This document shows positions 1 to 40,167 of a DNA stretch of 64,000 bases, piece after piece. Source of the stretch: a virus (lineage: Duplodnaviria; Caudoviricetes); IMG/VR virus record IMGVR_UViG_3300017990_000017, positions 737-64,736 of that record; one strand, given 5' to 3'. The notes below the pieces were generated by a model. That model made no database searches. It worked only from the letters and a program-made list of their open reading frames with translations, and was not told the DNA's origin. How positions within the stretch are numbered: the stretch's first letter is position 1; every line of letters starts with the position of its first letter. The position numbers and the translations under genes are program-made.

Positions 1-684
1 GTTCGTGTGGCGAATTCGCTGGACAATGCCTACGGCCCCACCAACGGGGTGGGTGGTGTTGGTACCACAGCGGTGTTCGAGTTCCTTCGAGGTCGATCCT
101 TCATCAGCAAGGAGATCCGGCAGCGACGTATGGGCATCTCGGGCGACATCACTCGAGGTCAGACCCGTGCGACTTTCGATCCGACCGAGTACTTCGGCCT
201 GTCGCCGGAGGTACCGCCGGACTCTGATCTCTGGTTCCTGCGGTTCCAGGTCTCGACGGTGGCAACCGCAGCGGCGGCTGGTAGCGTTCAGGCTGGTTAC
301 CCCGGCGGTGTTTTTCCGGGGACGGCGAGCGCGACGGACCAGAGCGACATCCTCGTCATGCAGACGCCGGACTTTTTCTCGGTGCCGCGTCCTGCCCTGA
401 CTCTCTATGGCACCGCGCCTGACGTGGGTGCTGTTCCGGGTCTTCCGGCGCCTCTCGAGTCGATGTCTTTTCACGTACCGGCTTTTGCCGATGCGATGGT
501 CATCACCAACCACGGTGCCGCACCTCTTTTCTTCTCGGTTGGACAGGGTTTGCCGATGATGCAGGTAGACCCTGGCGCCTCGATCTCGCACTCGAGTGGC
601 ATGAAGGACGAGATCTCTCTTGCCGCCGACGGCGCCAACCCGAACTTCTCGATTCTCATCTCCACCGTGACCGGTCAGCGCTAG
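1..684 (+). CDS. Hypothetical virion-module protein, probably 5'-truncated by the window edge
   Basis: Frame is open from base 1 (GTT CGT GTG GCG...) to TAG at 684, with codon usage like the neighbouring genes. The track start at 7 has no upstream context. Confidence 0.6.
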   Translation, partial: VRVANSLDNAYGPTNGVGGVGTTAVFEFLRGRSFISKEIRQRRMGISGDITRGQTRATFDPTEYFGLSPEVPPDSDLWFLRFQVSTVATAAAAGSVQAGYPGGVFPGTASATDQSDILVMQTPDFFSVPRPALTLYGTAPDVGAVPGLPAPLESMSFHVPAFADAMVITNHGAAPLFFSVGQGLPMMQVDPGASISHSSGMKDEISLAADGANPNFSILISTVTGQR

Positions 685-695
685 GGGCGCATTAT

Positions 696-728
696 CGGTT
701 ATCTGTTTATAGCCCCTCCAATGTAGAG
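696..728 (+). promoter_or_regulatory. Putative phage late promoter motif, copy 1
   Basis: CGGTT-N7-TATA-N11-GTAGAG. The same spaced motif recurs at 7 other gene boundaries. Confidence 0.6.
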
Positions 729-762
729 AGAGCCCATCTCGGGACCCGGAGGAATCACCACG

Positions 763-1428
763 ATGCCGTACATCATCATGCGTCGGACGGACATCCCGAA
801 TGGGGTGTTGCAGGTCGACGATCTCAAGCCCAACGACTCCCAGCGCAACTACACGCTCGATCCCCCGGGACAGAGCGGGTACGTCCGTCAGATCCCCGCC
901 AGCGACGATGTCGTCACGACCGCTCCTGGCGCCATCCTGACGGTGCGCGATGCCTGCGGCCTGGCCGCGTACCTGATCGACAACGTGGAGGACAGCGGCG
1001 GTGCTGCTCTCACCGCGACTGTTGCCAACGATGCGGCGGACGCGATCATCGCCCTGGCTGTGGGCGGCATGGCTGTCGGCCTCACCGAGGTGGACGCTGA
1101 GCTTGTCGCTGCGGGTGCGACTGCGGGCACTGGTCTCGAGACAGGCGCTTCCACGGGTCTTCTCAGCGAGCTCCTCGAGCTCCTGTCCGGCGCCAAGTAC
1201 CAGCTTCCGGCTGGCAGCGTCGTGGACACCAACGGCTCGACCTTCAACCCGACTCGCCAAGGGTTCTTCGCTACCACGCCTGGCGTGAAGCGGATCGAAG
1301 CCACGGGCGCCTTCAACGTCTCCAACGGCGCGGGTGACCTGTTCAACTACAAGCGTGCGGACTTCGAGTACAACGGCGTGCTCGGTCCTGCCCTTCTTGT
1401 TCTCGCCGACGACGGAAGCGTCCTCTAG
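763..1428 (+). CDS. Putative capsid decoration/structural protein, paralog 1 of 3
   Basis: GGAGG RBS. N-terminus MPYIIMRRTDIPNGVLQV and C-terminus LVLADDGSVL are shared with the next two ORFs. Confidence 0.55.
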   Translation: MPYIIMRRTDIPNGVLQVDDLKPNDSQRNYTLDPPGQSGYVRQIPASDDVVTTAPGAILTVRDACGLAAYLIDNVEDSGGAALTATVANDAADAIIALAVGGMAVGLTEVDAELVAAGATAGTGLETGASTGLLSELLELLSGAKYQLPAGSVVDTNGSTFNPTRQGFFATTPGVKRIEATGAFNVSNGAGDLFNYKRADFEYNGVLGPALLVLADDGSVL

Positions 1429-1439
1429 GGAGAAGAGCA

Positions 1440-2492
1440 ATGCCGTACATCATCATGAAGCGGAATGACATCCCGGACGGGACGCTCCAGGTCCTCGACC
1501 TCGAGCCGAACGTGTCGCAGCGTAACCTGACGCTCGACGCACCGGGTCAGACCAAGTACGTCAACGCGGTCGAGAACGACACGGTTGTCGAAACCACTTT
1601 GGGCGGCGGCGAGGTCGTCATGCACCGTGCTGCCAATGGTCTCGCGGCGTGGATCGTTACCAACGTCAACGACGGCACCGGCGCAGCAGGTACAGGTACT
1701 TTCACCGTTGTGGTGGCGACCCCAATCCTCCCCGCTGACACGGTGACGGTTGGCGCTCAGATCTTCACGGCAGTTGCTGGGCCCCGTACTCCGGGTTCCA
1801 ATGACTTCAGTCTGGCTTCGGGCACCGATGCCGGCGTGGCGGCCGATCTGGCTGCTGCCATCAACGACCCGATGAACGGTCTGGCTCAGCCTGGTGGTCT
1901 GTCCAATCTCGTTACGGCAGTTCCTGCCGCTGGCGTGGTGACCATCACTGCCAACATGGATGGGGCGGCCGGCAACCTGGCGTTGGCCTCCTCCAACGCT
2001 GCTGGGTTCTCCCCGGTCGGCATGGCTGGTGGTGTGGATGCGGGCCAAGTCACGGCTGCGGACGCCAACACGGGCGCCGCTGCGGTCCTGGCCCTCTACG
2101 GGTTCGGTGATCTCACCTCGGCAGCGGGAACGCTTCAGCTTGCCGACATCAACGGTGCGCTCGTCGGCGGTGCTGCCATCACCGCTGCCCAGCTTCCCGA
2201 TGTACTGAATCTTCTGGCAGGCGCAAAGTACGAAGTGCCGCGAGGGGTTCAACTTGCAGACGGCGGTGGTGTTTGGGACGTGCAGCCTCCGGTGGGTTCG
2301 GCTGGTGGTCCTGGGTTCGTCGAGAACTCGAACCGCGCCCTGTTCCTGAACGACGGTCTTCCGCTGTCGTTCGTGGTGGGTGAGCTCGCTGAGTTCACTG
2401 ATAGCTCGTTCGTGTACGCCGGAGTCCCCGGTGATCCGAACGGCGAAGCGGTCGTTGTTTACAACGACGATGGATCCCTCTTCACCCCGTAA
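1440..2492 (+). CDS. Putative capsid decoration/structural protein, paralog 2, with an inserted ~120-aa domain also found in the tail sheath
   Basis: N-terminus MPYIIMKRNDIPDGTLQV. Insert at ~1683-2039 (DTVTVG..GPRTPGSNDF..AADLAAAINDPMNGL..AGN..GGVD) matches the sheath repeats. Confidence 0.6.
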   Translation: MPYIIMKRNDIPDGTLQVLDLEPNVSQRNLTLDAPGQTKYVNAVENDTVVETTLGGGEVVMHRAANGLAAWIVTNVNDGTGAAGTGTFTVVVATPILPADTVTVGAQIFTAVAGPRTPGSNDFSLASGTDAGVAADLAAAINDPMNGLAQPGGLSNLVTAVPAAGVVTITANMDGAAGNLALASSNAAGFSPVGMAGGVDAGQVTAADANTGAAAVLALYGFGDLTSAAGTLQLADINGALVGGAAITAAQLPDVLNLLAGAKYEVPRGVQLADGGGVWDVQPPVGSAGGPGFVENSNRALFLNDGLPLSFVVGELAEFTDSSFVYAGVPGDPNGEAVVVYNDDGSLFTP

Positions 2493-25293: not shown

Positions 25294-27392
25294 GCGATAG
25301 TGAAAAACCAGTCCTGGGGGTCGGGCTCGACATGGGCACGATGAACATCGTGGCTGCCCGTCGTACCAAGGAAGGCGTCATCACGAACCGCATTCGTGAC
25401 GCCTTCCTCGATCTGCCGTCCGAGCACCGCAAGATGCTCAAGCTGTCGGGCGTCAACTACGTCTCAACGGACGACGGGCTCGTCATCGTGGGGGATGCGG
25501 CCTACGACATGGCCAACATGTTCAGTCGCGAAGTTCGGCGCCCGCTTCAGAGCGGCCTGATCGCGGCTGGGGAGATCGATGCACTCGAGATCCTCGGCAT
25601 CTTGGTCAAGCATGTGCTCGGTGAGCCGAAGGAAGAGAAGGAGGTCTGCTACTTCTCTGTGCCGGCGGCTCCGGTCGATGATCCGGACCGGGACGTGGTG
25701 TACCACCGAGGCGTTCTCGAGCGGATCGTCAACGAGTGCGGCTACAAGGCGTACCCGAGCAACGAGGCGCTGGCGATCATCTACTCCGAGTGCGCGAAGG
25801 ATGGTTTCTCCGGCATCGCGTTCTCGTTCGGGTCCGGTATGACCAACGTGGCGCTTGCCATGGGCACCATCGAGGGTCTGAGTTTTAGCGTCGCGCGCTG
25901 TCTCTCAGGAGACTTCCCGGTCGTCACGCGGGAAGGGCTTAAAACGATGGAGGAGGTGCGCGAAGGTGACGAAATCCTCGACGCATACGGTGTTTTCGTG
26001 CCTGTCCTTGAGAAGATGTCGAACGGGACCCGGCGCCATCTCATCGAGGTTCAACTCGAGAATCTCCCTGCTTTCCCTCACCGTCTCACACACGACCATC
26101 GGGTATTTGTCCAACGTCGTTTCGGATGGGAGTGGGTTGAGGCAGGGGATCTTCGTGAGGGGGATACCGTGGGTATCGCGACGATCCAGTCCGACCGGGA
26201 CAGCGGATCGAGCTACTATTTCGGTAGGCAAGACGGAAAAAACGTCACGGTTGCTGGGGCGCGTGGGTTGGGGCGTCTGATGGGGATGTTCCTCGGCGAT
26301 GGTTCATGTGGTCCTCATGCCGAAAGGCCGTCTTATGTCCAGTTTGCCATCAACCGCCGGGATCAACATCTTGTCGAAGAGTATACAGACTTGTGTTTCC
26401 GCCTGTTCCATCGAGAACCGGAGATCGTGGACGATCCCGCCGAAAACCTCACGCGCCTCAAACTTCACATCACACCGGTGGCCTGCCATTTCAAGGAAAA
26501 GTTCTACGATGATGAGGGGACAAAACGGTGCCCGCTTGATCCCTCCAAGATCGGCAACCAGATGGCACTCGGAATTCTTCATGGTCTGATGGACAGCGAC
26601 TCCCATGAGGAGCTCAAGCGTCACACGATCACGAACACATCGGTGCCTGTCGTCATGTTGGCTCACCATCTACTCAACCGTTTCGGGATCGAACATTCAA
26701 TCCTCAAACGGGAGCCACGCCTCGGCGGCGTGAACGCACGTGGTGTCCAAATCGAAGGTCGCAAACCGTGCTACGAGATCAGGATCAACGGCCACGTAGC
26801 GAAGAATCTGTTCGACACGATGCTCACAGTCGAAGGCCACCAAGTGTTCGACAGATTCCCCGCCTTCGTCACCTACAAGGTCGCTTCGGTTTCCGAAGTG
26901 GAGCATGATGGGGAGGTCTACGACATCCGTGTGGGGTCGGAACACCACTCTTTCAGTTCTCCAGGCATGACGGTTCATAACTGTGGGGACTGGATCGACC
27001 ACGGTGCCGCGAAGTCCACGGGCTCTACGCAGGCTCGCATGTGTAGCCTCAAGGAGAAGGGGCTCAACCTCATGCACCCGCAGAGCCGTGAAGAAGAGGC
27101 TCTGGTGGTCTACTACAAGAGCCTCATCGAGTACGCGCTCGACAACGTCGCGAGCGAGTTCATGAAGATCCAGGGCAAGTTCTCGCTGCCGAAGCCGATC
27201 CCCATCGTCGTCAGCGGCGGTACGTCCAAGGCCGGTGGGTTCCTCGAGTTCTTCACCCAAGTCTTCGAGGACAAACGTAAAAAGTTCCCCATCGAGATCA
27301 GCGAGATCCGGGCGGCTAAGGAGCCTCTGGATGCTGTTGCACGGGGTCTTCTTGTGCAGGCGATGCAAGAGTACGTGGACGACGAGGACTGA
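25290..27392 (+). CDS. Actin-fold ATPase (MreB/ParM/FtsA-like) interrupted by an intein
   Basis: Phosphate-1 GVGLDMGTMNI, connect motif NEALAII, phosphate-2 SFGSGMTNV, adenosine motif IVVSGGTS and AVARG. Mature protein about 339 aa. Confidence 0.85.
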   Translation: MSDSEKPVLGVGLDMGTMNIVAARRTKEGVITNRIRDAFLDLPSEHRKMLKLSGVNYVSTDDGLVIVGDAAYDMANMFSREVRRPLQSGLIAAGEIDALEILGILVKHVLGEPKEEKEVCYFSVPAAPVDDPDRDVVYHRGVLERIVNECGYKAYPSNEALAIIYSECAKDGFSGIAFSFGSGMTNVALAMGTIEGLSFSVARCLSGDFPVVTREGLKTMEEVREGDEILDAYGVFVPVLEKMSNGTRRHLIEVQLENLPAFPHRLTHDHRVFVQRRFGWEWVEAGDLREGDTVGIATIQSDRDSGSSYYFGRQDGKNVTVAGARGLGRLMGMFLGDGSCGPHAERPSYVQFAINRRDQHLVEEYTDLCFRLFHREPEIVDDPAENLTRLKLHITPVACHFKEKFYDDEGTKRCPLDPSKIGNQMALGILHGLMDSDSHEELKRHTITNTSVPVVMLAHHLLNRFGIEHSILKREPRLGGVNARGVQIEGRKPCYEIRINGHVAKNLFDTMLTVEGHQVFDRFPAFVTYKVASVSEVEHDGEVYDIRVGSEHHSFSSPGMTVHNCGDWIDHGAAKSTGSTQARMCSLKEKGLNLMHPQSREEEALVVYYKSLIEYALDNVASEFMKIQGKFSLPKPIPIVVSGGTSKAGGFLEFFTQVFEDKRKKFPIEISEIRAAKEPLDAVARGLLVQAMQEYVDDED
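25899..26981 (+). mobile_element. Intein with LAGLIDADG homing endonuclease (361 aa)
   Basis: Starts CLSGDFPV; block B LTHDHRVF; LAGLIDADG-like MGMFLGDGS and LHGLMDSDS; block F VYDIRV; ends VHN followed by Cys+1. Confidence 0.92.
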
Positions 27393-27456: not shown

Positions 27457-28236
27457 GTGCCACCTCGTACCCAACCACTTCTGGAACGAGAAGTCCTGGA
27501 AACTCTGTATTTCCAAGAAGGGCTCTCTATCCAAAAGGTCGCTGACCGAACCGGAACCAACATCCGGCTTGTGCGCGACTCGTTCACTGCACACGGGCTT
27601 ACGTGGCGCTCTCGGTCGCAAGCCATGACAGGTTTGGTTCGGAGCGCAGAAACGCGGGCCAAGGTTTCAGCAGCACGACGAGGACGACGAGACACGCCGG
27701 AAACCGCAGCGAAAAAACGTGAAATTCTGGATCGAGTGCGTCGCTGGAATGTCGGCCTGACCAAGGAAACCGATGAGCGTGTGGCTCGGGCTGCTGCGGC
27801 ATTTGCCAAGGTTGTTCGGACTCCCGAATTCCGTGAAGCACAGTCACGTCGCGCGTCCGAAAGACTTCGAACTACAGGAGGAGGTTTTGCCCGTGGTTGG
27901 CATGACTCCCCCAAAGCGGGTCGCGTACACTTCATGAGTTCCTGGGAAAAAAATCGTTTCATCGAACTGGATGCGGATGACACGGTCCTCCTGTACAAAC
28001 CACAACCTTTCTCGATCCCCTACTTCTGGGAAGGAGCGGTCAAACACTACACCCCCGACACCCTGGTTATCTACGAAGGTCGCCTTCCGGAAGTAGAAGA
28101 GATCAAACCTCGACGACGAATCGAGGCTGACAAAACAGGCCGCATCGCGGCCAAGTTCATCGCAGGTCGTAAGTTCTGCGTGGACCGTGGCTGGCTCTAC
28201 CGTGTCATCGACACGAAGCCTGAAGGGAAGGTGTGA
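27457..28236 (+). CDS. Free-standing homing endonuclease-like protein (HTH + NUMOD3-like + TnsA-like PD-(D/E)XK)
   Basis: LSIQKVADRTG helix-turn-helix, RSAETRAKVSAARRG, and SSWE..QPFSIPY....HYTPDTL..EEIKP. Confidence 0.75.
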   Translation: MPPRTQPLLEREVLETLYFQEGLSIQKVADRTGTNIRLVRDSFTAHGLTWRSRSQAMTGLVRSAETRAKVSAARRGRRDTPETAAKKREILDRVRRWNVGLTKETDERVARAAAAFAKVVRTPEFREAQSRRASERLRTTGGGFARGWHDSPKAGRVHFMSSWEKNRFIELDADDTVLLYKPQPFSIPYFWEGAVKHYTPDTLVIYEGRLPEVEEIKPRRRIEADKTGRIAAKFIAGRKFCVDRGWLYRVIDTKPEGKV

Positions 28237-30151: not shown

Positions 30152-30178
30152 CTTCCTCCCCTCACGGGGACGGCCAAA
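30152..30178 (+). promoter_or_regulatory. Conserved leader hairpin element, copy B (in the 264-nt leader of the sheath gene)
   Basis: CTTCC-TCCCC-TCAC-GGGGA-CGGCCAAA. Confidence 0.5.
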
Positions 30179-30314
30179 TGGAAACCGACAAACGGACGTG
30201 AACGAGAAGCAGATGTGTACTCCAGTGCTCTTTTGAGCGCATCCAGCGACTGCAATCCAGGGCTTTTAGCTCCACAGGAGAGATCTGCCCTGACTCCGAA
30301 GAGGTAGCCCCACA

Positions 30315-33300
30315 ATGGCCGATTTCCCAGGCAACATTTACGCCCCGCCCGGCGTGTACACGCGGACGCTTTTCGAGAGCCCGGTTTCCGCTGTACTTGC
30401 TGGTGTCCGGATTCCTGTCTTCATCGGGACCGGTAACGAGCTTCTCCAGCAACAAGACCTCGAAGTCATCCGTGGCTCCTCGAGCTCCGTGGACCAGCAG
30501 GTTCCACAGGAGGACGAGACTGGTCGCGCGGTAGTCTCGATCTCCGACACTGGCCAGGTCACCCTCGGTGACTTCAATGGCGAGCGTCGTCGGATCCAGG
30601 TGCGCAACTTCCCCATCACCAACGGTGATGGCAGCGGCACCATCGCCACCGACCCGAGCTCGATCTTCGTGACGATCAACGGGCGTGCCGATGTGGTGCT
30701 CAGCGTCGCGCGCGCCGACATCGGCGTCATCGAGATCAGCACCGCTCCCGAGCTCGGTGACGATGTGCGGATCACGTACTTCTTCAAGCGGACCGACTCC
30801 CAGATCACCGACGATGTCTCGAACCAGGCGACGCCCTCGAGCGCCGTCCTGGATGGCGCGCTCGGCAACCAGTACGAGTTCACCGCCGACACCAACGAGC
30901 TCACCGTCACGGTGGATTTCGACCAGTCGCAGGCGACTCAACAGGTCGTGACCGCGACCTTCCCGACTGGGAGCGTCACTGCCGCCACGGTTGTCTCGTT
31001 GATCAACGGCGCGGCAGCCGGCACGTCTCTCGTCGCTTCGGAGTTCACGAACAACTTTGGCCAGACCGCTGTGCGTTTGGTTGCTGACCGTGATCTGCTC
31101 ATCGGCGACGGATCGGCCAACGTCGTCTTGGGCTTCTCGCGGGGTCAGAGCACCAACCGCAACCGAACTTTCTACACCTACAACGGTCCCATCGTGGACG
31201 GTACCAACGGCGGTATCACCACCACCGACGTTTCGAAGGTGACGGTTCGCGTGGACGGGGTGCAGGTCATCCCCACAGAGGTGGACGGCCAGAACCACGC
31301 TGTGACGCTGCCCTTCGCTCCCGAAGTGGGATCGCAGGTCACTGTCCAGTACTTCTTCAACTCGTGGCAAGACACGTTCGACTACCTGGCGAACATCAAT
31401 GTCACCGAGGTCTTGCGGTGCGGCATCGTTCCGCTCAACAACGATTTCATCGAGGGTGCTGACTTCATCCTCAAGGACGACCTGATCGTCTGGGGTTCCG
31501 CTTTCCTGGTGTCGCCCGGAGTCACGAGCCCCGGAGCTCCCGCGTTCGGTCCCACGCAGATCAGCGGCCTGCTCATCGACAACCGATGGTTCCTTGCGCC
31601 CACCGATGTGGTGGTCGACGACACGGTCAACCCGCCTGTTGAGGATCGTACCAAGTTCACGTTGCCGGCTCAGCCCACCACGGGCAACGGTCGTGACACC
31701 CCGCTGGGTCAGCAGACTTTCCTCAGCATCAGCAACAACCGTCTCGATCTCCCGACCAACAACCCGAACCTGGTTCGGGCCTACTGGGGCTTCAGCATCC
31801 AAGACGCCCTCCAGCGCGGTCCGGTGACGGTGACGCAGGTTCAGGGTACGGAGATCACCCTCGAGCAGCCGGTGCCCGTGGGCGCCGAGGTTTGGGCGAC
31901 CTTCTGGTACAACATCCTCGTCGATGAGGAGTACACCGTTCAGGTTGAGACCAGCGGACCGTCGGGCATCGGTACCTACTTCCTGTTCGACAGCAACGGG
32001 AACCCGGTCTACACGCCGAAGTTCGGTAGCAAGGGTCCGGCGCTCACCGGCGTCACGATCCAGTTCCCGAGCGGCTCGGAGATCACTCCCGACGTTCACT
32101 TCGAGGGCGGCACGCAAGGCCCCGTCGAGGAAACCGTCACCATTCAGTTCTCCGACAAGGACTCGACGATCGGCAAGTTCACGGTTCCCGGTTCGGGCCC
32201 GTATTTCTTCGTCGAAAGTCAGTCGGACCGAGCTCGGTTCACCATCGACAGCTCTCCGCTGGCGGGCGGTGCGGCCGGCATCGATCTCTCGGCGCCACAC
32301 GGCATCGCGGGTCTCGGTTTCAACGCCTCGCTCCTTGGTGAGGAGATTGTCTACACCGACGACTCGGGCAAGACGACCTACGATGTTCTCGCCGGTCTGA
32401 ACGACAACATCTCGTTCACGGTGGACAACGTGGTGGTCACGGTGAACGTCCCGGCACAGACGGGCGTGAACGCCGATGCCTACGTCGAGGCGATCAACGC
32501 TGAGTCCAAGCTCGCTGACAACAACCCGTACTACGACGGCGTGACGCGGTTCCTCGGAACCACGACCATCACGGCTGGTGAGTACGACACCCTCACGTTC
32601 AACTACACGGGCGTCACCAACGGCAGCACTGGCCCGGTGACGGCGACCATCGCCCCGGGTATCTACGTGTCCCCGAACGCGCTGGCTGCTGCGGTGAACT
32701 CCGCACTCGACACCGCCATCGCTGCTCTCCCGGCAGCCTACGATGGTGTGGACGTGACCTGCACGGCGAACGCGGACGGTCAGATGCGGTTCACCTTCAC
32801 AGGTGCCGACACTGACCTCGGTACCTTCGCGACCGGCACCGTCACCAACGTGGCTTCGGTTCTGGGAGACACCATCGAGATTGGAGGCATCACGCTTACC
32901 GGTTCCCTTGGGGTCACTCCCGGCGGTCTCGACTACGACACCGGCCAAGCTCGAGGCACCATCATGGCTGCCGGCGTTCAGCCTGGTGACACCATCACCA
33001 TCGATACCACGGCAGTGGGCGGTGGCCCGGTTCTCCTGACCGCAGCCGGAGCTCAGACTCCGGGTGGCCTCAACTTCAATGAGGGCGTCCAGGCGAGCGG
33101 CACCATCACCGTGAGCGGGCCGATCCCGAACGACACGGTTACCGTTGACGGCATCACTCTGACCGCTTTGGGAATGCAGTCCCCGGGTGGTCTGGACTTC
33201 GACGAAGGCACCCGTTCGACCGGTTCGGCTACCCTCGCCAGCGTCGTGTACGGCGACACCATCACCATCGACGCTTCGGTCGTGGGTGGTGGTCTCGTCA

Positions 33301-36300
33301 CTCTGACGGCCAGCAACACGCTCACCCCTGGTGGTCTGGACTTCAACGTCGGCACCGCAGCCACGGGTGACTTCATGACCATGGGCGTGCGACCCGCCAC
33401 CATGGCGCCGTTCCCCGTCACCCCGGCGGACACGGTTACCATCGGCGGTTCGGTCCTCACTCCGGTTGAAGGTGCCCGTACTCCGGGTTTCGATGACTTC
33501 GACGCGGGTACTCGCTCTGTCGGAACTCTGACCGTCGTGGCCGATTCTCTCGGTCCCAGCACGGGTGTCTTGTACGGTGACACGATCACCATCAACGGCA
33601 TCCCTCTGGTGGCGGACAGCGTGACCACACCTGGTGGTCTCAACTTCGACGCTGGTACTCAGGCGACGGACACGCTGACCGTGACCGCTTCTCCGGCCAG
33701 CGCGACGATCACGATCGACGTGGGTGGTCTCAACGGCGGCCCCTTCCCGCTGACTCCGGCGGGTGGTCCTCGTACCCCGGGTGCGAACGACTACGACGAG
33801 ACTCTCGGCACCACGGCTGCCATCGCGGGTGAGATCGCTGCTGCGATCAACGATCCGTCCAACTCCTTCGCCACGTTCATGAGCGCGGCGGCAGGTCCTG
33901 GGCCGGCGGATGTGACCCTGATCTGGACGGTTCCGGGTGTGCTCTCCAACGGTGTCGTCAACAGTAGCTCCGACGGTACGGTCACCACGACCGGTGGCTT
34001 CGGCGGCGGTGTGGGCGACGAGATCACCACTGCGACGGCCATCGTCGCGGCGATCCTTGACCCGCTCAATGGTTTGGATGCTCTCATCCAGGCTCACAAC
34101 ACCGGTGGCACTTCGGCTACCGTCAACATCCAGGCGTTGGCTCCGGGTGTGGCGGGCGACTCGATCAGCACGGTTTCGACCACGCCTGCTCGACTCACCT
34201 TCGGTGGTGGCTTCCTTGCTGGTGGTGTTGGTGACAACAACACCGCTGCGACGGACGCTGCGGCTGCCATCAACGATGCGTTGAACTCTTTCACCGCTAC
34301 CGCAACCGCTGTTGCGGTGGGCAGCAACGTGAATCTCACGGCTGTGACTCCGGGCGCTGCGGGCAACCTCATCGCTCTGAGTACTACGGCAGCGGGTCGT
34401 TTCGTCCTTTCGGGGGGGTCCTTCACCGGTGGTCTCGGCGACGACATCTCGGCGGCGACAAGCCTGGTGGCGGCCATCACCGATCCCGCGAACGGTCTGA
34501 CCGACATTGTGGCTGATAACGTGGGCGGTACGTCGGCGGTGGTCACTCTCGATTCGTTTACGCCGGGCCTGGTAGGTGATGGCATCCTGCTCTTCGAGAG
34601 CACGGGTGGTGTTCGCATCATGCTCTCGGGCGCGAGTCTCCTCGGCGGTGTTGGTGACGACACCACTGTGGCGGCTTCCATCGCGGCAGCCATCAACGAT
34701 GCTGGTAACGGCATCAGTGCCACGGTGAGTGCGATGGCGGTGGGCAATGTGGTCACCATGACCGCTGTCACCCCTGGTAACGCGGGCAACATCATCGACA
34801 CGACGAGCTCGGATGCAAGCCGTCTCCTCATGTCGGCGGTCACTCTCCAGGGTGGTGTGGGCACCGATTTCACGGTGGCTGCTTCCATCGCGGCGGCGAT
34901 CAACGACCTGGGTAACGGTCTTGCGGCTGATATCTCGGCGGACAATGAGGGCGGCACGAGCACCACGGTGACCGTGTGGGCCAACGTTCCGGGTGTGGCT
35001 GGCAACGGCATCACTTTGGCGAGCTCGACTCCGGTGCGTCTCCCGCTCTCGGGTGGTGTGTTTGGTGGTGGTCTCACCGACGTGGGTGTGGCGACGACCA
35101 TCGTTACGGCCATCACCGATCCACTCAACGGTCTGGACACGCTCGTCACGGCCGACAACAGCTCCGGCACTTCCTCCACTGTGGACCTCACGGCGGCGGT
35201 CCCAGGCCCGCAGGGGAACTTCATCACGCTCTCCTCGAGCGACATGGTCCGTCTCCCGGTGTCGGCGGCGACTCTCACGGGTGGCTCCGGGCTCGGCGGC
35301 GGTGTGTTCGAGTTCCTCGATGGCGCGTCTTTGGCTGTGGACTTCGCGGTTCTGGCCGGTCTGTCTACGGATTCGCTCCCGAGCCAGGAGCAGACCAAGA
35401 TCGTCGATGGTGATGTGGCTCGCCGCTTCACGGCAGCGGGTGTGAGTGGTCGTCTGATCTACGACCGCATCATCATGCGCAACCGCGTCACTCCGGGGTC
35501 CGGTTCCATTCGTCCGGAAAGCCAGGTTGCTCAGACCAACCTGGTCATACAGGGAACCAACGCCAACGACGAGACGGGACTGGCTTCCCGTGCCTTCGGC
35601 GAGGCGGGCATCGGTGCTGTGATTCAGCCGGCGACGCTCTACGGCGAAGTCGGGTTCGCGGATGGTCAGGTGCCCTCGGGTACCTTCGGCGACGCTCGAG
35701 ACGGTCAGCCCCAGGTCCAGTTCTTCGGACCGAACGGGGTCAACCCCCAGAACAACGTGTTCAAGTTCAACGTTGATGGCACTCCCGTCACCGTCGTGTT
35801 CACGGACGCTTCTGGGTTCGCCATCCCGACGGCGGGTACCGCTACGGTTCCGCTTGGGCCGCTCGGTACGCCGAACACCATCCTCAGCCAGATTCAGACG
35901 GCGGTTGTGGGTGCGGGTCTCTCGCCCATGACGGTCGCCCCCGAAGGTGCCGGTATGCGACTCGTCTCGCAACTGGTGGATACCAACTCGGCTGTGACCA
36001 TCGACAACGGCAACGCCAACGACGTGCTCGGGTTCTCCGAGGGCGCCACGGCTACCCGTGACTCGGTGCAGGTCGAGAAGGTGGCTTCGGCGCTGATGAT
36101 GCACCACAGCACGACCATCAATGGTGTGCTGCTCGATTACCAGAGCCCCGACGCGAACTGGTTCGCGGCTCAGGCTCTGGCGGCCAAGGAAGTGGACTCC
36201 AGCAACGCGGAGTTCCTGTTCATCCAGTCGCAGGCCAACAACATCGTGGGTCTGGGCGCTTCCTCGAACATCGTGTTCCTGGACGCGACGACCGACTCCT

Positions 36301-37772
36301 GGCTCCGTACCGGTACTGGCCTTCGGGTCCAGTCGGGCGACGGTGCTTCGGGCGAAACTGGGTTCCAGGGCTTCTACGTCACGAGCTCCGATCCCATCGA
36401 CGGTTCCGGTTCGGCCAACACCTCGTGCCTCAACAACGGCACGGGTCAGGACGGCGTCATCGGTCAGAGCTACCGTGACACGGTCACGGGGCTTGTCTTC
36501 ACCATCCTCCCGCGTGAGGGTGGTGCAGACTACCCGATCGGACCGGGGGCGTTCTTCACCTTCGAGGTACGGCGCTTGGTGACCACGGACGCCAACGTCC
36601 CGGTCAACTCGCTTCCTGGCCTCGAGCTCACGGTGGCGAACACCGAAGGTTCGACCATCCCGACGGGCGATACGGCCATCGTCGAGACCTTCGACCGTGG
36701 CGGTCAGGAGCCGGCGGTGGGTGACAGCTACTTCGTCACCTACAACTACTCCAAGACGGAGGCCGACTTCGAGACCCAGCTCTTCACCAACCAGCGGGCG
36801 GTGGAGCGGAACTACGGTGAGATCAGCCCGGATAACCCGGTGTCTCTCGCGGCGTTCCTCGGGTTCTTGAACGGAGCTGTGGTCCTCGGCATCAAGCAGG
36901 TGCCGAAGATCCCGGGCAGCAACCAGGCCAGCACGCCGACTTTCATCGACGCGCTCAACGACTTGCGTGGCCCTCTGCCTGGTGGTGCGGTTCTCGACAC
37001 CATCACCCCGCTCAAGGGTGATGATGTGGACCTGTTCTTGTCCCTCAAGAACCACTGCGACATCCAGTCCAGCATCCGCTTCCGAGCGGAGCGTACGGGC
37101 ATCATCGGAGTGGCTTCGGGCACGCAACCCACTGACGTGGGAGGCATCGCTCAGCAGATCCAGAGCACCCGCATCCGTCTGGTCTACCCGGACATCGTGA
37201 CGCTCACCGTCCAGGACGCCCTCGGCAATGACAAGCAGTTCCTGCTCGATGGCACCTTCTTGGCTGCGGCCATGACCGGTAACCGGGCGAGCCCGAACAT
37301 TGACGTGGCAACCCCGTGGACGCGGGCACGCATCGTCGGGTTCGACCAGCTCGCACGGACGCTGGACGCTGTCGAGCAGAACCAGGTTGCGGTTCAGGGC
37401 GTCACCGTCCTTGATCAGCGTGGCACCGTGATCCGGGTCCGTCAGGGCCTCACCACGGACATGAGCAACATTCTGACCAAGCTCCCGACCGTGATCACCA
37501 TCGCGGACGAGGTGCAGCGGGCAGCTCGACGAGACCTTGATCGCTTCATCGGCATCAAGTTCCTCCCGGGTGTGCTCAGTCAGATCGAGGGTCAGCTCTC
37601 GACCACGATGAAGGCGCTCAAGAACGCCGAGATCATCACGGCGTTCACTGGGATTCAGGCACGGACGACCAACGACCCGACCATCGTCGAAGTCGAGGCT
37701 TTCTATCAGCCCGTTTTCCCGCTTTTGTATATCGTCATCACTTTCAATCTGCGCTCGAATTTGGGCGGATAA
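30315..37772 (+). CDS. Giant contractile tail sheath protein (2485 aa)
   Basis: N-terminal YAPPGVY..PVFIGTG and a C-terminal sheath core (IRVRQGLTTD..IADEV..FIG..YQPVFPLLYIVITF); followed downstream by the tube gene. Confidence 0.88.
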   Translation: MADFPGNIYAPPGVYTRTLFESPVSAVLAGVRIPVFIGTGNELLQQQDLEVIRGSSSSVDQQVPQEDETGRAVVSISDTGQVTLGDFNGERRRIQVRNFPITNGDGSGTIATDPSSIFVTINGRADVVLSVARADIGVIEISTAPELGDDVRITYFFKRTDSQITDDVSNQATPSSAVLDGALGNQYEFTADTNELTVTVDFDQSQATQQVVTATFPTGSVTAATVVSLINGAAAGTSLVASEFTNNFGQTAVRLVADRDLLIGDGSANVVLGFSRGQSTNRNRTFYTYNGPIVDGTNGGITTTDVSKVTVRVDGVQVIPTEVDGQNHAVTLPFAPEVGSQVTVQYFFNSWQDTFDYLANINVTEVLRCGIVPLNNDFIEGADFILKDDLIVWGSAFLVSPGVTSPGAPAFGPTQISGLLIDNRWFLAPTDVVVDDTVNPPVEDRTKFTLPAQPTTGNGRDTPLGQQTFLSISNNRLDLPTNNPNLVRAYWGFSIQDALQRGPVTVTQVQGTEITLEQPVPVGAEVWATFWYNILVDEEYTVQVETSGPSGIGTYFLFDSNGNPVYTPKFGSKGPALTGVTIQFPSGSEITPDVHFEGGTQGPVEETVTIQFSDKDSTIGKFTVPGSGPYFFVESQSDRARFTIDSSPLAGGAAGIDLSAPHGIAGLGFNASLLGEEIVYTDDSGKTTYDVLAGLNDNISFTVDNVVVTVNVPAQTGVNADAYVEAINAESKLADNNPYYDGVTRFLGTTTITAGEYDTLTFNYTGVTNGSTGPVTATIAPGIYVSPNALAAAVNSALDTAIAALPAAYDGVDVTCTANADGQMRFTFTGADTDLGTFATGTVTNVASVLGDTIEIGGITLTGSLGVTPGGLDYDTGQARGTIMAAGVQPGDTITIDTTAVGGGPVLLTAAGAQTPGGLNFNEGVQASGTITVSGPIPNDTVTVDGITLTALGMQSPGGLDFDEGTRSTGSATLASVVYGDTITIDASVVGGGLVTLTASNTLTPGGLDFNVGTAATGDFMTMGVRPATMAPFPVTPADTVTIGGSVLTPVEGARTPGFDDFDAGTRSVGTLTVVADSLGPSTGVLYGDTITINGIPLVADSVTTPGGLNFDAGTQATDTLTVTASPASATITIDVGGLNGGPFPLTPAGGPRTPGANDYDETLGTTAAIAGEIAAAINDPSNSFATFMSAAAGPGPADVTLIWTVPGVLSNGVVNSSSDGTVTTTGGFGGGVGDEITTATAIVAAILDPLNGLDALIQAHNTGGTSATVNIQALAPGVAGDSISTVSTTPARLTFGGGFLAGGVGDNNTAATDAAAAINDALNSFTATATAVAVGSNVNLTAVTPGAAGNLIALSTTAAGRFVLSGGSFTGGLGDDISAATSLVAAITDPANGLTDIVADNVGGTSAVVTLDSFTPGLVGDGILLFESTGGVRIMLSGASLLGGVGDDTTVAASIAAAINDAGNGISATVSAMAVGNVVTMTAVTPGNAGNIIDTTSSDASRLLMSAVTLQGGVGTDFTVAASIAAAINDLGNGLAADISADNEGGTSTTVTVWANVPGVAGNGITLASSTPVRLPLSGGVFGGGLTDVGVATTIVTAITDPLNGLDTLVTADNSSGTSSTVDLTAAVPGPQGNFITLSSSDMVRLPVSAATLTGGSGLGGGVFEFLDGASLAVDFAVLAGLSTDSLPSQEQTKIVDGDVARRFTAAGVSGRLIYDRIIMRNRVTPGSGSIRPESQVAQTNLVIQGTNANDETGLASRAFGEAGIGAVIQPATLYGEVGFADGQVPSGTFGDARDGQPQVQFFGPNGVNPQNNVFKFNVDGTPVTVVFTDASGFAIPTAGTATVPLGPLGTPNTILSQIQTAVVGAGLSPMTVAPEGAGMRLVSQLVDTNSAVTIDNGNANDVLGFSEGATATRDSVQVEKVASALMMHHSTTINGVLLDYQSPDANWFAAQALAAKEVDSSNAEFLFIQSQANNIVGLGASSNIVFLDATTDSWLRTGTGLRVQSGDGASGETGFQGFYVTSSDPIDGSGSANTSCLNNGTGQDGVIGQSYRDTVTGLVFTILPREGGADYPIGPGAFFTFEVRRLVTTDANVPVNSLPGLELTVANTEGSTIPTGDTAIVETFDRGGQEPAVGDSYFVTYNYSKTEADFETQLFTNQRAVERNYGEISPDNPVSLAAFLGFLNGAVVLGIKQVPKIPGSNQASTPTFIDALNDLRGPLPGGAVLDTITPLKGDDVDLFLSLKNHCDIQSSIRFRAERTGIIGVASGTQPTDVGGIAQQIQSTRIRLVYPDIVTLTVQDALGNDKQFLLDGTFLAAAMTGNRASPNIDVATPWTRARIVGFDQLARTLDAVEQNQVAVQGVTVLDQRGTVIRVRQGLTTDMSNILTKLPTVITIADEVQRAARRDLDRFIGIKFLPGVLSQIEGQLSTTMKALKNAEIITAFTGIQARTTNDPTIVEVEAFYQPVFPLLYIVITFNLRSNLGG
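32829..35291 (+). repeat. Seven A-type then seven B-type protein half-repeats inside the sheath
   Basis: A = G(T/S)xT..DT(I/V)TI..LT...TPGGL(D/N)F(D/N)xG, seven copies (32829-33809). B = A..IxAAIxDxxNG..V.(L/I)..PG..G(N/D).I...S....GG.G, seven copies (33810-35291). Confidence 0.85.
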
Positions 37773-38889: not shown

Positions 38890-39111
38890 ATGGAACCGAT
38901 TGCTCACAGCCAGGACAAGGCACTTACTGTCCATGAAGTTGCTGATCTACTCAAGGTCAATGAGCGGACAGTGTATCGCTTGGCATGCAAGGGCATGCTT
39001 CCAGGGTTCAAGGTCGCTGGTACATGGCGATTCATGGCAAATGACGTTTCCGAATGGATAAAAAACGAAAAAGAGAAAGCTCGGGTCGCAGGAACGGGAG
39101 GTCACAAGTGA
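38890..39111 (+). CDS. Excisionase-family HTH DNA-binding protein
   Basis: LTVHEVADLLKVNERTVYRLA..G.LPGFKV.GTWRF. Confidence 0.85.
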   Translation: MEPIAHSQDKALTVHEVADLLKVNERTVYRLACKGMLPGFKVAGTWRFMANDVSEWIKNEKEKARVAGTGGHK

Positions 39112-40130
39112 AAAGACCGGTAGCAATGGAGATATGCGCCGGTGGCGGCGGACAAGCCCTGGGTCTCGAACTCGCGGGATTCGACCATGCTGCCGTAGTT
39201 GAGATCGACTCTGCAGCGTGTGCAACGCTGCGTCAGAATCGACCCTCATGGAATGTAGTTGAAGGAGACCTGAAAGAGTTCGACGGAAAGCCATACCGGG
39301 GAATTGATCTATTGGCGGGAGGTGTTCCCTGTCCGCCGTTTTCCATTGCTGGGAAACAGCTCGGAGCCGATGACGAAAGGGATCTTTTCCCGGAGGCTCT
39401 GCGTCTTGTCAGAGAGACCAAGCCACGTGCAGTGTTGCTCGAAAACGTGCGGGGGCTTGCATCACCGAAATTTGCAGATTATCGAGCGGGAATCATTCAA
39501 AAACTAGGTCGAATGGGATACCGCGCGGACTGGCGCCTTCTCAACGCCAGCGATTTCGGTGTCCCGCAACTTCGTCCTAGATTTATTCTAGTTGCACTTC
39601 GCAAGGAAATTGCAGACCGTTTCGAGTGGCCTGAGCCCATCGGCAGTCCGCCAACCGTCGGTGCGACGCTGAAGGATCTGATGTCGTCTGGCGGCTGGGC
39701 TGGGGCCGACAATTGGGCGAAGAGAGCAGCGGATATTGCACCCACTGTTGTTGGAGGATCAAAGAAACACGGTGGGCCAGACTTGGGTCCAACTCGGGCC
39801 AAAAGGCAGTGGCTCGAACTTGGAGTCGATGGCTTGGGGATAGCGTACGACCCGCCCGGTCCTGATTTTCCAAAGGAAGGTACTCCGAAACTCACGGTTA
39901 AGATGGTTGCCCGTGTTCAAGGCTTCCCCGATGCATGGGAGTTCTCTGGCAAGAAGACCGCTGCATATAGGCAAGTCGGCAACGCATTTCCACCACCGGT
40001 CGCAACGGCTGTTGGAAAGGCCATTCTCAATGCTTTGTCCGAAAATGGGAAGTCGGTGAATCCTGACCGGGGACTGACCGGTCTTCCATTACTGGAGATG
40101 ATGGAGAGGGCGGAACAACAGAATACCTAG
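39108..40130 (+). CDS. dcm: C5-cytosine DNA methyltransferase, M.NaeI/M.NgoMIV-like (likely GCCGGC)
   Basis: Motifs EICAGGGG, GGVPCPPFS, ENVRG, QLRPR and YRQVGNA. The variable region APTVVGGSKKHGGPDLGPTRAK is closely similar to M.NaeI as recalled. GTG start with GGAGG. Confidence 0.9.
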   Translation: MKRPVAMEICAGGGGQALGLELAGFDHAAVVEIDSAACATLRQNRPSWNVVEGDLKEFDGKPYRGIDLLAGGVPCPPFSIAGKQLGADDERDLFPEALRLVRETKPRAVLLENVRGLASPKFADYRAGIIQKLGRMGYRADWRLLNASDFGVPQLRPRFILVALRKEIADRFEWPEPIGSPPTVGATLKDLMSSGGWAGADNWAKRAADIAPTVVGGSKKHGGPDLGPTRAKRQWLELGVDGLGIAYDPPGPDFPKEGTPKLTVKMVARVQGFPDAWEFSGKKTAAYRQVGNAFPPPVATAVGKAILNALSENGKSVNPDRGLTGLPLLEMMERAEQQNT

Positions 40131-40167
40131 TGAGAATCTGGGCGAAACTGATGACCGATGGGGCGAA

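What the first reader, a model, noticed from the sequence alone, without database searches (positions are those of the whole stretch)
32829..35291. Nested ('Russian-doll') domain stack in a giant tail sheath: seven A halves then seven B halves
Seen: about 820 aa of the sheath is not a tandem repeat. Seven copies of a ~40-50-aa unit A (ending TPGGLDFDxG-like) are followed by exactly seven copies of a ~70-aa unit B (AAIxDxxNG...PG..GN...GGVG), with the pivot at 33809/33810. One contiguous A+B unit occurs in the protein at 1440..2492 (1683-2039), so A+B looks like a single domain. Inference: the domain has been inserted into its own loop repeatedly, A1(A2(...(A7 B1)...)B6)B7. This would give an out-and-back stalk of seven domains projecting from every sheath subunit, a 'hairy' sheath whose length is set by nesting depth. 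The block itself interrupts another domain (..GQMRFTFTGAD / GVFEFLDG..). Established: T4 gp18 is 659 aa and sheaths do grow by nested domain insertion, but I know of no case of one domain self-nested seven times.
Basis: partly seen in the sequence, partly recalled or inferred. Interest (0 to 1): 0.85.

Follow-up and report, generated by a model that had tools for sequence, protein, structure and literature searches.

The report
Seven-deep self-nested domain in phage sheath
A giant tail-sheath protein of an uncultivated huge phage carries one small surface domain nested inside itself seven times, probably forming an out-and-back rod on every sheath subunit, and related phage proteins use the same trick at depths of one to five.

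Summary
ORF 30315-37772 (+) encodes a 2485-aa protein. Its C-terminal 485 aa are homologous to annotated phage tail sheaths and fold like solved sheaths. Residues 834-1660 hold seven A units and then seven B units, with the pivot at nt 33809/33810.

A+B is one domain. It occurs contiguously in the window's ORF 1440-2492 and in at least 79 other proteins.

The nested reading is supported by three lines of evidence:
- **Predicted structure.** The AlphaFold2 model has mean pLDDT 89. Single solved domains superpose on ranges running from the start of A_i to the end of B_(8-i) for six of the seven layers.
- **Covariation.** Across 44 orthologues, the mirror pairing scores best of all 5040 possible pairings.
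- **Unit counts.** Pure A^nB^n forms occur with n = 1, 2, 3, 4, 5 and 7 in several protein families. 193 of 274 unit-bearing proteins are balanced by HMM count.

Three things remain open: how the nest evolved, how the rod sits on the tail, and what it does.

A precedent for recursive self-nesting exists, the Si3 insertion of cyanobacterial RNA polymerase. I therefore rate this a striking new variant, not a new kind.

The parts
30315..37772 (+). Giant tail sheath gene, 2485 aa (P0001)
   Evidence: ORF and translation. The N-terminus is conserved in 120 listed homologues. C-terminal homology to annotated sheaths and sheath fold.
32775..32813 (+). Upstream strand of the host beta-hairpin that the block interrupts (aa 821-833)
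   Evidence: In unit-less homologues this strand is joined to the downstream strand by a turn of about 8 residues.
32814..32945 (+). A1 (aa 834-877), N-half of the outermost layer; partner B7
   Evidence: Covariation A1-B7: 8 of the top 50 A-B couplings. Model range 28..848 aligned to one domain, but weakly (Z 3.8, 82 residues).
32946..33086 (+). A2 (aa 878-924); partner B6
   Evidence: Model range 70..770 superposes on the PhiTE sheath domain (Z 8.6, rmsd 2.0, 81 residues). Covariation is weak.
33087..33209 (+). A3 (aa 925-965); partner B5
   Evidence: 12 of the top 50 couplings. Model range 116..705, Z 7.6, rmsd 2.5, 80 residues; range 114..706, Z 7.0.
33210..33353 (+). A4 (aa 966-1013); partner B4
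   Evidence: 3 of the top 50 couplings. This is the only layer for which no structural-alignment row was returned.
33354..33509 (+). A5 (aa 1014-1065); partner B3
   Evidence: 6 of the top 50 couplings. Model range 204..565, low Z of 3.7-4.7.
33510..33656 (+). A6 (aa 1066-1114); partner B2
   Evidence: Model range 256..494/495, Z 5.9 and Z about 4. Enrichment 2.6x in the top 400 couplings.
33657..33809 (+). A7 (aa 1115-1165), N-half of the innermost, contiguous domain; partner B1
   Evidence: Model range 304..420 superposes on cyanophage A-1(L) sheath residues 91-185 (Z 10.7, rmsd 2.2, 93 residues).
33810..34016 (+). B1 (aa 1166-1234), C-half of the innermost domain
34017..34232 (+). B2 (aa 1235-1306)
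34233..34439 (+). B3 (aa 1307-1375)
34440..34655 (+). B4 (aa 1376-1447)
34656..34862 (+). B5 (aa 1448-1516)
34863..35072 (+). B6 (aa 1517-1586)
35073..35294 (+). B7 (aa 1587-1660), C-half of the outermost layer
35295..35330 (+). Downstream strand of the interrupted host hairpin (aa 1661-1672)
36315..37769 (+). C-terminal sheath core (aa 2001-2485)
   Evidence: tblastn to annotated tail sheaths: Tunturi_5 E 6e-39, phage G E 1e-27. AF2 model pLDDT 81.8. 95 Foldseek PDB hits at E<=1e-3, and every row shown is from a phage tail or contractile injection system entry.
1440..2492 (+). Second gene with the module (P0002, 350 aa); one contiguous A+B at nt 1683-2039
   Evidence: An orthologue with the same termini (P0218, 786 aa) carries A5B5.

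Best explanation
The gene encodes the contractile-tail sheath subunit of an uncultivated huge phage. A turn of one of its non-core domains carries an 827-residue block. In that block a ~115-residue alpha/beta surface domain is nested within itself seven times. The fold is that of the protruding domain of the A-1(L), PhiTE, Milano and Mu sheaths, and of flagellin and FliD outer domains.

The chain lays down the N-terminal beta half (A) of layers 1 to 7 on the way out. It turns at the contiguous A7-B1 domain. It then supplies the C-terminal helix-plus-strands half (B) of layers 7 to 1 on the way back, so A_i and B_(8-i) form one domain.

The result, by inference, is a rod of seven domains. Both of its ends sit in the same host turn, and two chain crossings join every neighbouring pair of domains. 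That lets it grow from a loop and should make it stiffer than beads on a string.

The tip layers are the least conserved and the base layers the most. I therefore think the rod most likely holds a variable tip away from the tail surface, for weak contacts with the host envelope or matrix, or between tails. This functional step is inferred, not shown.

The same module is used at other depths in other proteins of these phages, so depth acts as a length setting.
For: **Sheath identity**
- The C-terminal 485 aa hit annotated tail sheaths by tblastn: Tunturi_5 at E 6e-39 over 90% of the query, phage G at E 1e-27, and cluster C mycobacteriophages at E 2e-19. 223 records matched.
- The AF2 model of this part (pLDDT 81.8) gives 95 Foldseek PDB hits at E<=1e-3. 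Every row shown is from a phage tail or contractile injection system entry: 3hxl at 5.5e-13, phage 812 with TM 0.71, pyocin R2, T4.

**A+B is one domain**
- It is contiguous in P0002. 79 proteins read as pure single AB by HMM.
- The model's A7+B1 superposes on one solved sheath domain (Z 10.7, rmsd 2.2, 93 residues).

**Nesting in the model**
- Mean pLDDT is 89.0, and above 90 through nearly all A and B units.
- Structural-alignment rows run from the start of A_i to the end of B_(8-i) for i = 1, 2, 3, 5, 6 and 7, with 65-93 aligned residues.
- No row spans a non-mirror A/B pair. The other discontinuity-free rows (272/274..423-426) are contiguous and cover part of A6 plus A7+B1.

**Covariation in 44 orthologues**
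- 33 of the top 50 A-B couplings lie on the mirror diagonal, against 7.1 expected. The same-index diagonal holds 4.
- The mirror pairing ranks first of 5040 permutations on the top 400 couplings, and ties for best on the top 50.
- Among all pairs at least 12 residues apart, mirror pairs make up 58 of the top 200, against a background of 7.1%.
- The contact between the A C-terminal segment and the B N-terminal helix recurs in layers 1, 3, 5 and 7.

**Unit counts**
- Pure A^nB^n: n=1 in 79 proteins, n=2 in 36, n=3 in 9, n=4 in 2, n=5 in 1, n=7 in 42.
- 193 of 274 unit-bearing proteins are balanced words.
- Orthologue series differ only in n: P0123/P0217 have 4, P0124/P0219 have 3, and P0127/P0128 have 2. 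The window's P0002 has 1 and P0218 has 5.

**Base-to-tip gradient**
- Cross-orthologue identity is 66, 72, 62, 67, 57, 58, 57% for A1-A7 and 55, 55, 59, 63, 60, 68, 66% for B1-B7.
- Length variation is concentrated in A5-A7 and B1-B3.
Against: - There is no experimental structure. AF2 and my covariation count use the same 44-sequence alignment, so they are not independent.
- I could not read model coordinates. Pairings are inferred from the first and last aligned residues only.
- The A4-B4 layer has no structural row and only modest covariation: 2.8x enrichment in the top 50 and 1.2x in the top 400.
- A2-B6 covariation is at background.
- Several structural rows have low Z (3.7-4.7 for A1+B7 and A5+B3), a range the tool warns can be a chance arrangement.
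- pTM is only 0.50, so the rod's straightness and direction are unknown.
- 76 of 274 unit-bearing proteins have more B than A by HMM count and 4 have more A. Most of the excess-B cases I inspected have gaps of 28-31 or 51-52 aa where a short A could sit. That is an explanation, not a demonstration. Three AABBB proteins (P0239, P0274, P0299) have 79-88-aa gaps that I did not resolve.
- P0001 itself has no Pfam or PHROG sheath hit. The best Pfam sheath hit in a homologue is below the curated cut-off: 29.1 against 31.4 bits.
- No tube gene was recognised next to the gene.
- Nothing bears directly on function.
Confidence: 0.8

Rival explanations
1. A and B are two unrelated tandem arrays. Seven A repeats form one beta-rich body, seven B repeats form a string of independent alpha/beta domains, and the equal numbers are a coincidence.
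For: In sequence the block does read as two consecutive arrays. HMM counts are unequal in 80 of 274 unit-bearing proteins.
Against: A is always directly followed by B when single (79 proteins). A7+B1 superposes on one solved domain. Covariation singles out the mirror pairing among 5040. The model gives no such fold. 7+7 is kept in all 44 aligned proteins.
Confidence: 0.04
2. The halves complement between molecules. The block opens at the A7|B1 hinge, and the A array of one sheath subunit pairs antiparallel with the B array of a neighbour, cross-linking the sheath like chain mail.
For: Covariation cannot tell contacts within a chain from contacts between chains. The mirror register is what an antiparallel swap would also give. 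Sheath subunits are packed in a lattice where neighbours are near (general knowledge).
Against: The A7-B1 junction is as short as in single contiguous domains. AF2 closes the monomer with high confidence. The same A^nB^n blocks occur in small proteins and in a methyltransferase-like protein that need not polymerise. A covalent-like mesh would have to survive sheath contraction.
Confidence: 0.07
3. The nested fold is right, but the stack is not a free bristle. It lies along the sheath surface and braces neighbouring subunits of a very long tail, as Si3 lies along RNA polymerase, with no role in host contact.
For: pTM of 0.50 leaves the orientation open. Extra sheath domains have been proposed to cement tails (Evseev 2022, PMC9230969, passages read). 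Si3 runs along its host enzyme (PMC10895346).
Against: The tip layers are the most variable in sequence and length, which fits exposure better than a fixed lattice contact. Close sheath relatives do without the stack or carry a single unit, so it is not needed for assembly.
Confidence: 0.25

Closest known systems
Si3 insertion of cyanobacterial RNA polymerase beta' (RpoC2): recursively nested sandwich-barrel hybrid motifs
   Same: One small fold is repeated, and several copies are built from distant N- and C-terminal segments. This gives an elongated body that grows out of a loop of its host. The crystal structure has eight SBHMs, four of them discontinuous (PMC10895346, passages read). ECOD analysis describes a six-level recursive insertion (PMC13114784, passages read).
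   Different: The fold, the host and the biology differ. The Si3 nest is irregular, mixing continuous and discontinuous copies. Here the word is a perfect A7B7 with one contiguous core, and related proteins show a graded series of n = 1-5 and 7. The Si3 nest is solved experimentally; this one is only predicted.
Multi-domain phage tail sheaths (T4 gp18 and the type 2/3 sheaths of Evseev et al. 2022)
   Same: A conserved core is made of the N- and C-terminal parts, with extra domains inserted and facing away from the tube. Larger phages have more domains (PMC9230969, passages read). The core fold matches. That the T4 gp18 domains are inserted one into another is recalled, not checked here.
   Different: In the passages read, the stated size range (426-713 aa) is for type 2 sheaths only, and the highest domain counts given for any sheath are 'five and more'. 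Here the protein has 2485 aa, and seven of its extra domains are copies of one fold nested in each other. The paper's supplementary lists were not available to me.
Protruding domain of the cyanophage A-1(L), PhiTE, Milano, Mu and Sf14 sheaths; FliD D3 and flagellin outer domains
   Same: The single A+B domain has this fold: 8kee_A residues 91-185 at Z 10.7; PhiTE at Z 8.7-8.9; P. aeruginosa FliC at Z 7.5; FliD at Z 6.3-7.0. Flagellins also have an out-and-back topology (PMC6248924, passages read).
   Different: Those proteins carry one copy or a few different domains. No sequence-level family match was found. Giant flagellins were described as growing by tandem duplication, not self-nesting.
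'Hairy' jumbo phages (phAPEC6, CBB, Atu_ph07)
   Same: Large myoviruses with appendages along the contractile tail, proposed to help host interaction (PMC7247149, passages read; titles and abstracts of the others seen).
   Different: [quoted passage not shown] Here the appendage would be part of every sheath subunit.

Membership tests
Contractile tail sheath protein | C-terminal sheath core fold | tested here: met
   AF2 of aa 2001-2485 (pLDDT 81.8). Foldseek PDB gave 95 hits at E<=1e-3, and every row shown is from a phage tail or contractile injection system entry (3hxl 5.5e-13; 8q1i_I TM 0.71).
Contractile tail sheath protein | Sequence homology to sheaths of characterised myoviruses | tested here: met
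   tblastn: Tunturi_5 tail sheath E 6e-39; Bacillus phage G tail sheath E 1e-27; cluster C mycobacteriophage sheaths E 2e-19. Those names are annotations of the records.
Contractile tail sheath protein | Pfam sheath model (PF04984) above the curated cut-off | tested here: not met
   No hit for P0001. Homologue P0117 scores 29.1 bits, E 1e-6, against a cut-off of 31.4. This is a limit of the model's sensitivity and does not contradict the fold.
Contractile tail sheath protein | Neighbouring tail tube gene and virion location | tested here: inconclusive
   Flanking ORFs have no tube-like Pfam or PHROG hit. The contig is only 64.7 kb of a probably much larger genome. Virion location is not testable here.
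Flagellin/FliD outer-domain-like sheath surface domain (the A+B unit) | Structural superposition over most of the domain | tested here: met
   A7+B1: Z 10.7, rmsd 2.2, 93 of about 120 residues on 8kee_A; Z 6-9 on other sheaths, FliD and FliC. The match is on a predicted model.
Flagellin/FliD outer-domain-like sheath surface domain (the A+B unit) | Sequence-family match | tested here: not met
   No Pfam or PHROG family at E<=0.1 or 0.01 for P0001 or P0002. No PDB sequence hit.
Recursive self-nested domain insertion (Si3-like architecture) | Domains built from distant N- and C-terminal segments, each enclosing the next | tested here: met
   Model ranges for six of seven layers. Mirror covariation is best of 5040 pairings. 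This rests on prediction and statistics, not on a solved structure.
Recursive self-nested domain insertion (Si3-like architecture) | Equal numbers of N- and C-halves in relatives | tested here: met
   Pure A^nB^n with n = 1, 2, 3, 4, 5 and 7. 193 of 274 unit-bearing proteins are balanced, 76 have excess B and 4 have excess A by HMM count. The excess-B cases are mostly explained by undetected short A units.
Recursive self-nested domain insertion (Si3-like architecture) | Origin by repeated insertion of the whole domain into its own loop | tested here: inconclusive
   Unit-similarity matrices fit the mirror order (r 0.80, rank 56 of 5040). This rests on A7 and B1 being joint outliers. Without them r is 0.34, rank 101 of 720.

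The most novel reading that the evidence does not exclude
Huge phages possess a general 'telescopic' building module. One ~115-residue domain can be nested in itself to any depth, and lineages change the depth to set how far a variable tip domain is held from the particle. Observed depths are 0, 1, 2 and 7 in sheaths, 1 and 5 in the P0002 family, and 2, 3 and 4 in the P0123 family. On the sheath this would give a tail coated with hundreds of stiff, double-stranded seven-domain bristles that take part in host or matrix contact. Architectures follow a balanced-bracket grammar, and mixed forms such as AB-AABB-AB are also seen.
Probability: 0.3. Interest if true: 0.85.

Novelty: new variant of a known kind. 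Interest (0 to 1): 0.72.

Why it matters
If the prediction holds, this is the deepest regular self-nesting of one domain that I could find described, and the first in a virion protein. It comes with a natural series of depths, n = 1-5 and 7, in orthologous proteins. That series makes an old question testable: how discontinuous domains arise and fold.

It would also change the expected shape of the tails of a widespread group of uncultivated huge phages. Relatives sit on contigs of up to 618 kb.

Finally, it offers protein engineers a loop-insertable rod whose length is set by nesting depth.

Tried and rejected
- **Family and sequence searches.** Pfam and PHROGs on P0001 and P0002 gave nothing useful beyond a weak DUF4815 hit. 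PDB sequence searches with the C-terminus alone and with a 25-sequence profile gave no hit. The sheath assignment therefore rests on tblastn and fold.
- **Same-index pairing.** Insert types in the A and B units matched 6 of 7 by index when I looked at the unit alignment, which suggested A_i pairs with B_i. I rejected this. The same-index diagonal holds 4 of the top 50 couplings against 33 for the mirror, and r is -0.12, rank 2864 of 5040.
- **Duplication history.** The test from unit similarity is not significant once A7/B1 are removed.
- **P0046 as a natural deletion of the interior.** This 1772-aa sheath with one unit sits inside the A7B7 clade in the C-terminal tree. It proved to be a mosaic: 63% identity over the N-terminal 975 residues, against 87% identity in the C-terminal alignment. 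Its unit matches no particular layer.
- **Layer mapping in the P0123 family.** Mapping which layer differs between the n = 2, 3 and 4 orthologues fits the mirror pairing but does not exclude others.
- **Other repeats.** Self-BLAST found no further internal repeat outside the block.
- **Cultured phages.** tblastn of the block against 50,697 phage records found no match at E<=1e-5, with the low-complexity filter on. BFVD gave only uncharacterised proteins: best A0A6J7VL40 at E 9.4e-26, plus two Rhodobacter phage RcTitan proteins.
- **Literature.** Searches on tail sheath with nested/domain insertion/jumbo, huge phages with AlphaFold, hairy jumbo phages, recursive domain insertion with bacteriophage, and matryoshka with phage and sheath found no description of a self-nested sheath domain.
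- **What I lacked.** No model coordinates were available, so I computed no contact map and no rod length.

Full report
**What is there**

The window is nearly all of a 64,736-bp contig with about 60% G+C. ORF 30315-37772 on the + strand encodes 2485 residues. Residues 834-1165 consist of seven units of 41-52 residues. Each is beta-rich and ends in the PGGLDFDxG-like motif at aa 869, 916, 957, 1005, 1057, 1106 and 1155. Residues 1166-1660 consist of seven units of 69-74 residues, each opening with the AAINDxxNG-like helix.

HMMs made only from these fourteen units find one A directly followed by one B in ORF 1440-2492 (aa 82-200, nt 1683-2039; E 1.5e-8 and 1.2e-7). They find nothing else in the contig. 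The block is poor in charged and aromatic residues: no Lys, no Cys, net charge -55.

**It is a tail sheath**

Pfam and PHROGs do not recognise the protein, and PDB sequence searches are empty. However, the last 485 residues match annotated tail sheaths by tblastn. The hits are Tunturiibacter phage Tunturi_5 (a 1204-aa sheath; E 6e-39 over 90% of the query), Bacillus phage G gp178 (E 1e-27), many cluster C mycobacteriophages (E about 1e-19), and an unannotated 485-kb uncultured phage at 52.6% identity.

An AlphaFold2 model of this part, built from 91 sequences, has pLDDT 81.8. It gives 95 Foldseek PDB hits at E<=1e-3. Every row shown is from a phage tail or contractile injection system entry: DSY3957, phage 812, phiCD508, pyocin R2, PVC, AFP and T4. 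One homologue has a sub-threshold Pfam sheath hit.

I found no tube gene beside the sheath gene. Because the genome is incomplete, I cannot say whether this is the only sheath gene.

**The block sits in a turn of another domain**

In unit-less homologues the strands that flank the block are joined by about eight residues (consensus). In the window the 827-residue block replaces that turn.

**A+B is one domain with a known fold**

The model of aa 811-1690 was built from 44 sequences. It has mean pLDDT 89.0 and pTM 0.50. The A units are all-beta, and each B unit is a helix followed by strands.

Structural alignment places A7+B1 (model 304-420) on the protruding domain of the cyanophage A-1(L) sheath (Z 10.7, rmsd 2.2 A, 93 residues). 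At Z 6-9 it also matches the equivalent domains of the PhiTE, Milano, Mu and Sf14 sheaths, the T7-like nozzle, P. aeruginosa flagellin and FliD D3.

**Nesting, line 1: the model**

Single-domain-sized alignments of 65-93 residues also fall on discontinuous ranges whose ends coincide with unit borders:

| Model range | Units | Best Z |
|---|---|---|
| 70..770 and 67..777 | A2+B6 | 8.6 |
| 114-116..705-707 | A3+B5 | 7.6 and 7.0 |
| 256..494/495 | A6+B2 | 5.9 |
| 204..565 | A5+B3 | 3.7-4.7 |
| 28..848 | A1+B7 | 3.8 |

No row spans a non-mirror A/B pair; the other rows besides these and 304..425 (272/274..423-426) are contiguous and cover part of A6 plus A7+B1. No row was returned for A4+B4. The low-Z rows are weak on their own. 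Ranges give only the first and last aligned residues, and I had no access to coordinates.

**Nesting, line 2: covariation**

I computed mutual information with average-product correction over 504 variable columns of the 44 orthologues.
- 33 of the top 50 A-B couplings fall on the mirror diagonal: A1-B7 8, A3-B5 12, A5-B3 6, A4-B4 3, A7-B1 2, A6-B2 1 and A2-B6 1. The expectation is 7.1. The same-index diagonal holds 4.
- The mirror assignment is the best of all 5040 on the top 400 couplings and ties for best on the top 50.
- Over all pairs at least 12 residues apart, mirror pairs take 58 of the top 200 places against a 7.1% share of pairs. This is more enriched than pairs within a unit.
- The coupled positions recur. 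The C-terminal segment of A couples with the N-terminal helix of B in layers 1, 3, 5 and 7.

Mosaic recombination would correlate whole stretches, not only mirror partners, so it does not explain the pattern. AlphaFold uses the same alignment, so lines 1 and 2 are not independent.

**Nesting, line 3: relatives**

Of 120 listed sheath homologues, including the window's own protein:
- 46 have no unit;
- 14 have one AB at the same site;
- 11 show only a B (A not detected);
- 1 has ABAB;
- 3 have (AB)5;
- 1 has AABB (P0117);
- 42 have A7B7;
- 2 have A6B7, with a 51-52-residue gap where A7 should be.

All 43 aligned orthologues have a segment at each of the 14 positions.

A search of 1.84 billion representatives with the block (95 hits) and a search with P0123 (149 hits, 120 listed) add non-sheath proteins. 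Over the 323 proteins, 274 carry units:
- 193 are balanced bracket words;
- 76 have more B than A;
- 4 have more A than B;
- 1 is equal but not balanced.

Pure A^nB^n occurs with n=1 in 79 proteins, n=2 in 36, n=3 in 9, n=4 in 2, n=5 in 1 and n=7 in 42. I saw no n=6.

Most of the excess-B cases that I inspected have gaps of 28-31 residues where a short A would sit. Three proteins with 79-88-residue gaps remain unexplained.

Orthologue series differ only in depth. One family shares both termini and has n=4 (521-522 aa), n=3 (406-411 aa) and n=2 (297-298 aa). The window's own P0002 (n=1, 350 aa) has an orthologue with n=5 (P0218, 786 aa). Two methyltransferase-like proteins carry A2B2 as an insert. 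Mixed words such as ABAABBAB also occur.

**Gradient along the stack**

Outer layers are the most conserved and inner layers the least. Cross-orthologue identity is 66, 72, 62, 67, 57, 58, 57% for A1-A7 and 55, 55, 59, 63, 60, 68, 66% for B1-B7. Length changes are concentrated in A5-A7 and B1-B3.

The contiguous core A7-B1 is a distinct subtype. It is 31-40% identical to other A units and 33-38% to other B units, whereas the outer layers are 39-53% identical to one another. Its junction motif is shared with single and tandem AB units elsewhere.

**What is not settled**

- **Evolutionary route.** Unit-similarity matrices fit the mirror order (r 0.80, rank 56 of 5040), but only because A7 and B1 are joint outliers. 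Without them r is 0.34, rank 101 of 720. Repeated whole-domain insertion and separate duplication of halves therefore both remain possible.
- **History on the tree.** On a FastTree of the C-terminal 480 columns (91 rows), the A7B7 proteins lie in a well-supported group of 21 rows together with single-unit sheaths. No sheath with n=3-6 was seen. P0046, a single-unit sheath placed inside that group, is a mosaic and not a deletion derivative.
- **Geometry and function.** pTM of 0.50 does not fix the rod's shape.

**How it most likely works**

Shown by prediction and statistics: seven domains, each enclosing the next, with both chain ends in one host turn.

Inferred: the stack is a rod with two chain crossings between neighbouring domains, one per sheath subunit, carrying a variable tip. 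By analogy with seven SBHMs spanning 150 A in Si3, the rod might be of the order of 150-250 A. I did not measure this.

Proposed function, with no direct evidence: reversible contact with the host envelope or matrix. The main alternative is lateral bracing of a long tail. An intermolecular swap of halves is not excluded by covariation, but it is disfavoured by the short A7-B1 junction and by the same blocks occurring in small proteins.

**Comparison with what is known**

Sheaths are known to gain extra outward-facing domains as phages get larger (PMC9230969, passages read). 'Hairy' jumbo phages carry separate fibres at a few rings along the tail (PMC7247149, passages read). Giant flagellins were described as growing by tandem duplication within an out-and-back topology (PMC6248924, passages read).

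Recursive nesting of one fold has a solved precedent in the Si3 insertion of cyanobacterial RNA polymerase (PMC10895346 and PMC13114784, passages read). My searches found no description of a self-nested sheath domain. Supplements were closed, and only the held library was searched.

**Verdict**

This is a new and unusually regular variant of recursive domain insertion in a new setting, with a natural depth series. Function and geometry remain open.

Noticed in passing
window 25290-27392 (+): A 700-aa ORF matches the actin-like Volactin family (PF25216, E 1.5e-67, in two stretches). It appears to be interrupted by an intein with a LAGLIDADG endonuclease (Intein_splicing E 2.2e-6, below cut-off; LAGLIDADG_3 23 bits, just above cut-off). 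This would be an actin-like gene with an intein in a huge-phage contig.
   Followed up: no
window 1440-2492 (+) and protein P0218: The window's 350-aa protein with one AB unit has an orthologue of 786 aa with the same N- and C-termini and five nested layers (A5B5). Its role is unknown.
   Followed up: partly
proteins P0126, P0129, P0223-P0225, P0227 (not in the window): Proteins of about 510 aa carry an A2B2 block as an insert. P0126 and P0129 show a SAM-methyltransferase-like glycine motif on reading the sequence, and P0227 has precomputed methyltransferase Pfam families. The residues after the insert resemble those after the sheath's block.
   Followed up: no
window 30162-37127 (-): A 2321-aa open frame lies antisense to the sheath gene. 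I take it for a shadow of the G+C-rich, Gly/Ala/Thr-rich coding strand, not a gene.
   Followed up: no
window 27457-28236 (+), 5006-6685 (+), 39054-40130 (+), 40130-42187 (+): A TnsA-like endonuclease N-terminal domain protein (E 2.3e-12), a homing-endonuclease-like protein (PHROG E 3.8e-29; DUF7487), a C5 cytosine methylase (E 9e-71), and a 685-aa ORF with weak N6/N4 methylase and Ros/MucR hits. Most other large ORFs (up to 1958 aa at 51934-57810) have no family match.
   Followed up: no
protein P0046 (sheath homologue, 1772 aa): A mosaic sheath. Its C-terminal part is 87% identical to the window's, but its N-terminal 975 residues are only 63% identical, and it has a single divergent AB unit in place of the seven-layer block. 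This suggests recombination within sheath genes.
   Followed up: partly
proteins P0066, P0068, P0070 and P0081 (sheath homologues): At the same insertion site these sheaths carry five (or two) tandem contiguous AB units instead of a nest. The two ways of multiplying the module therefore coexist in one protein family.
   Followed up: partly
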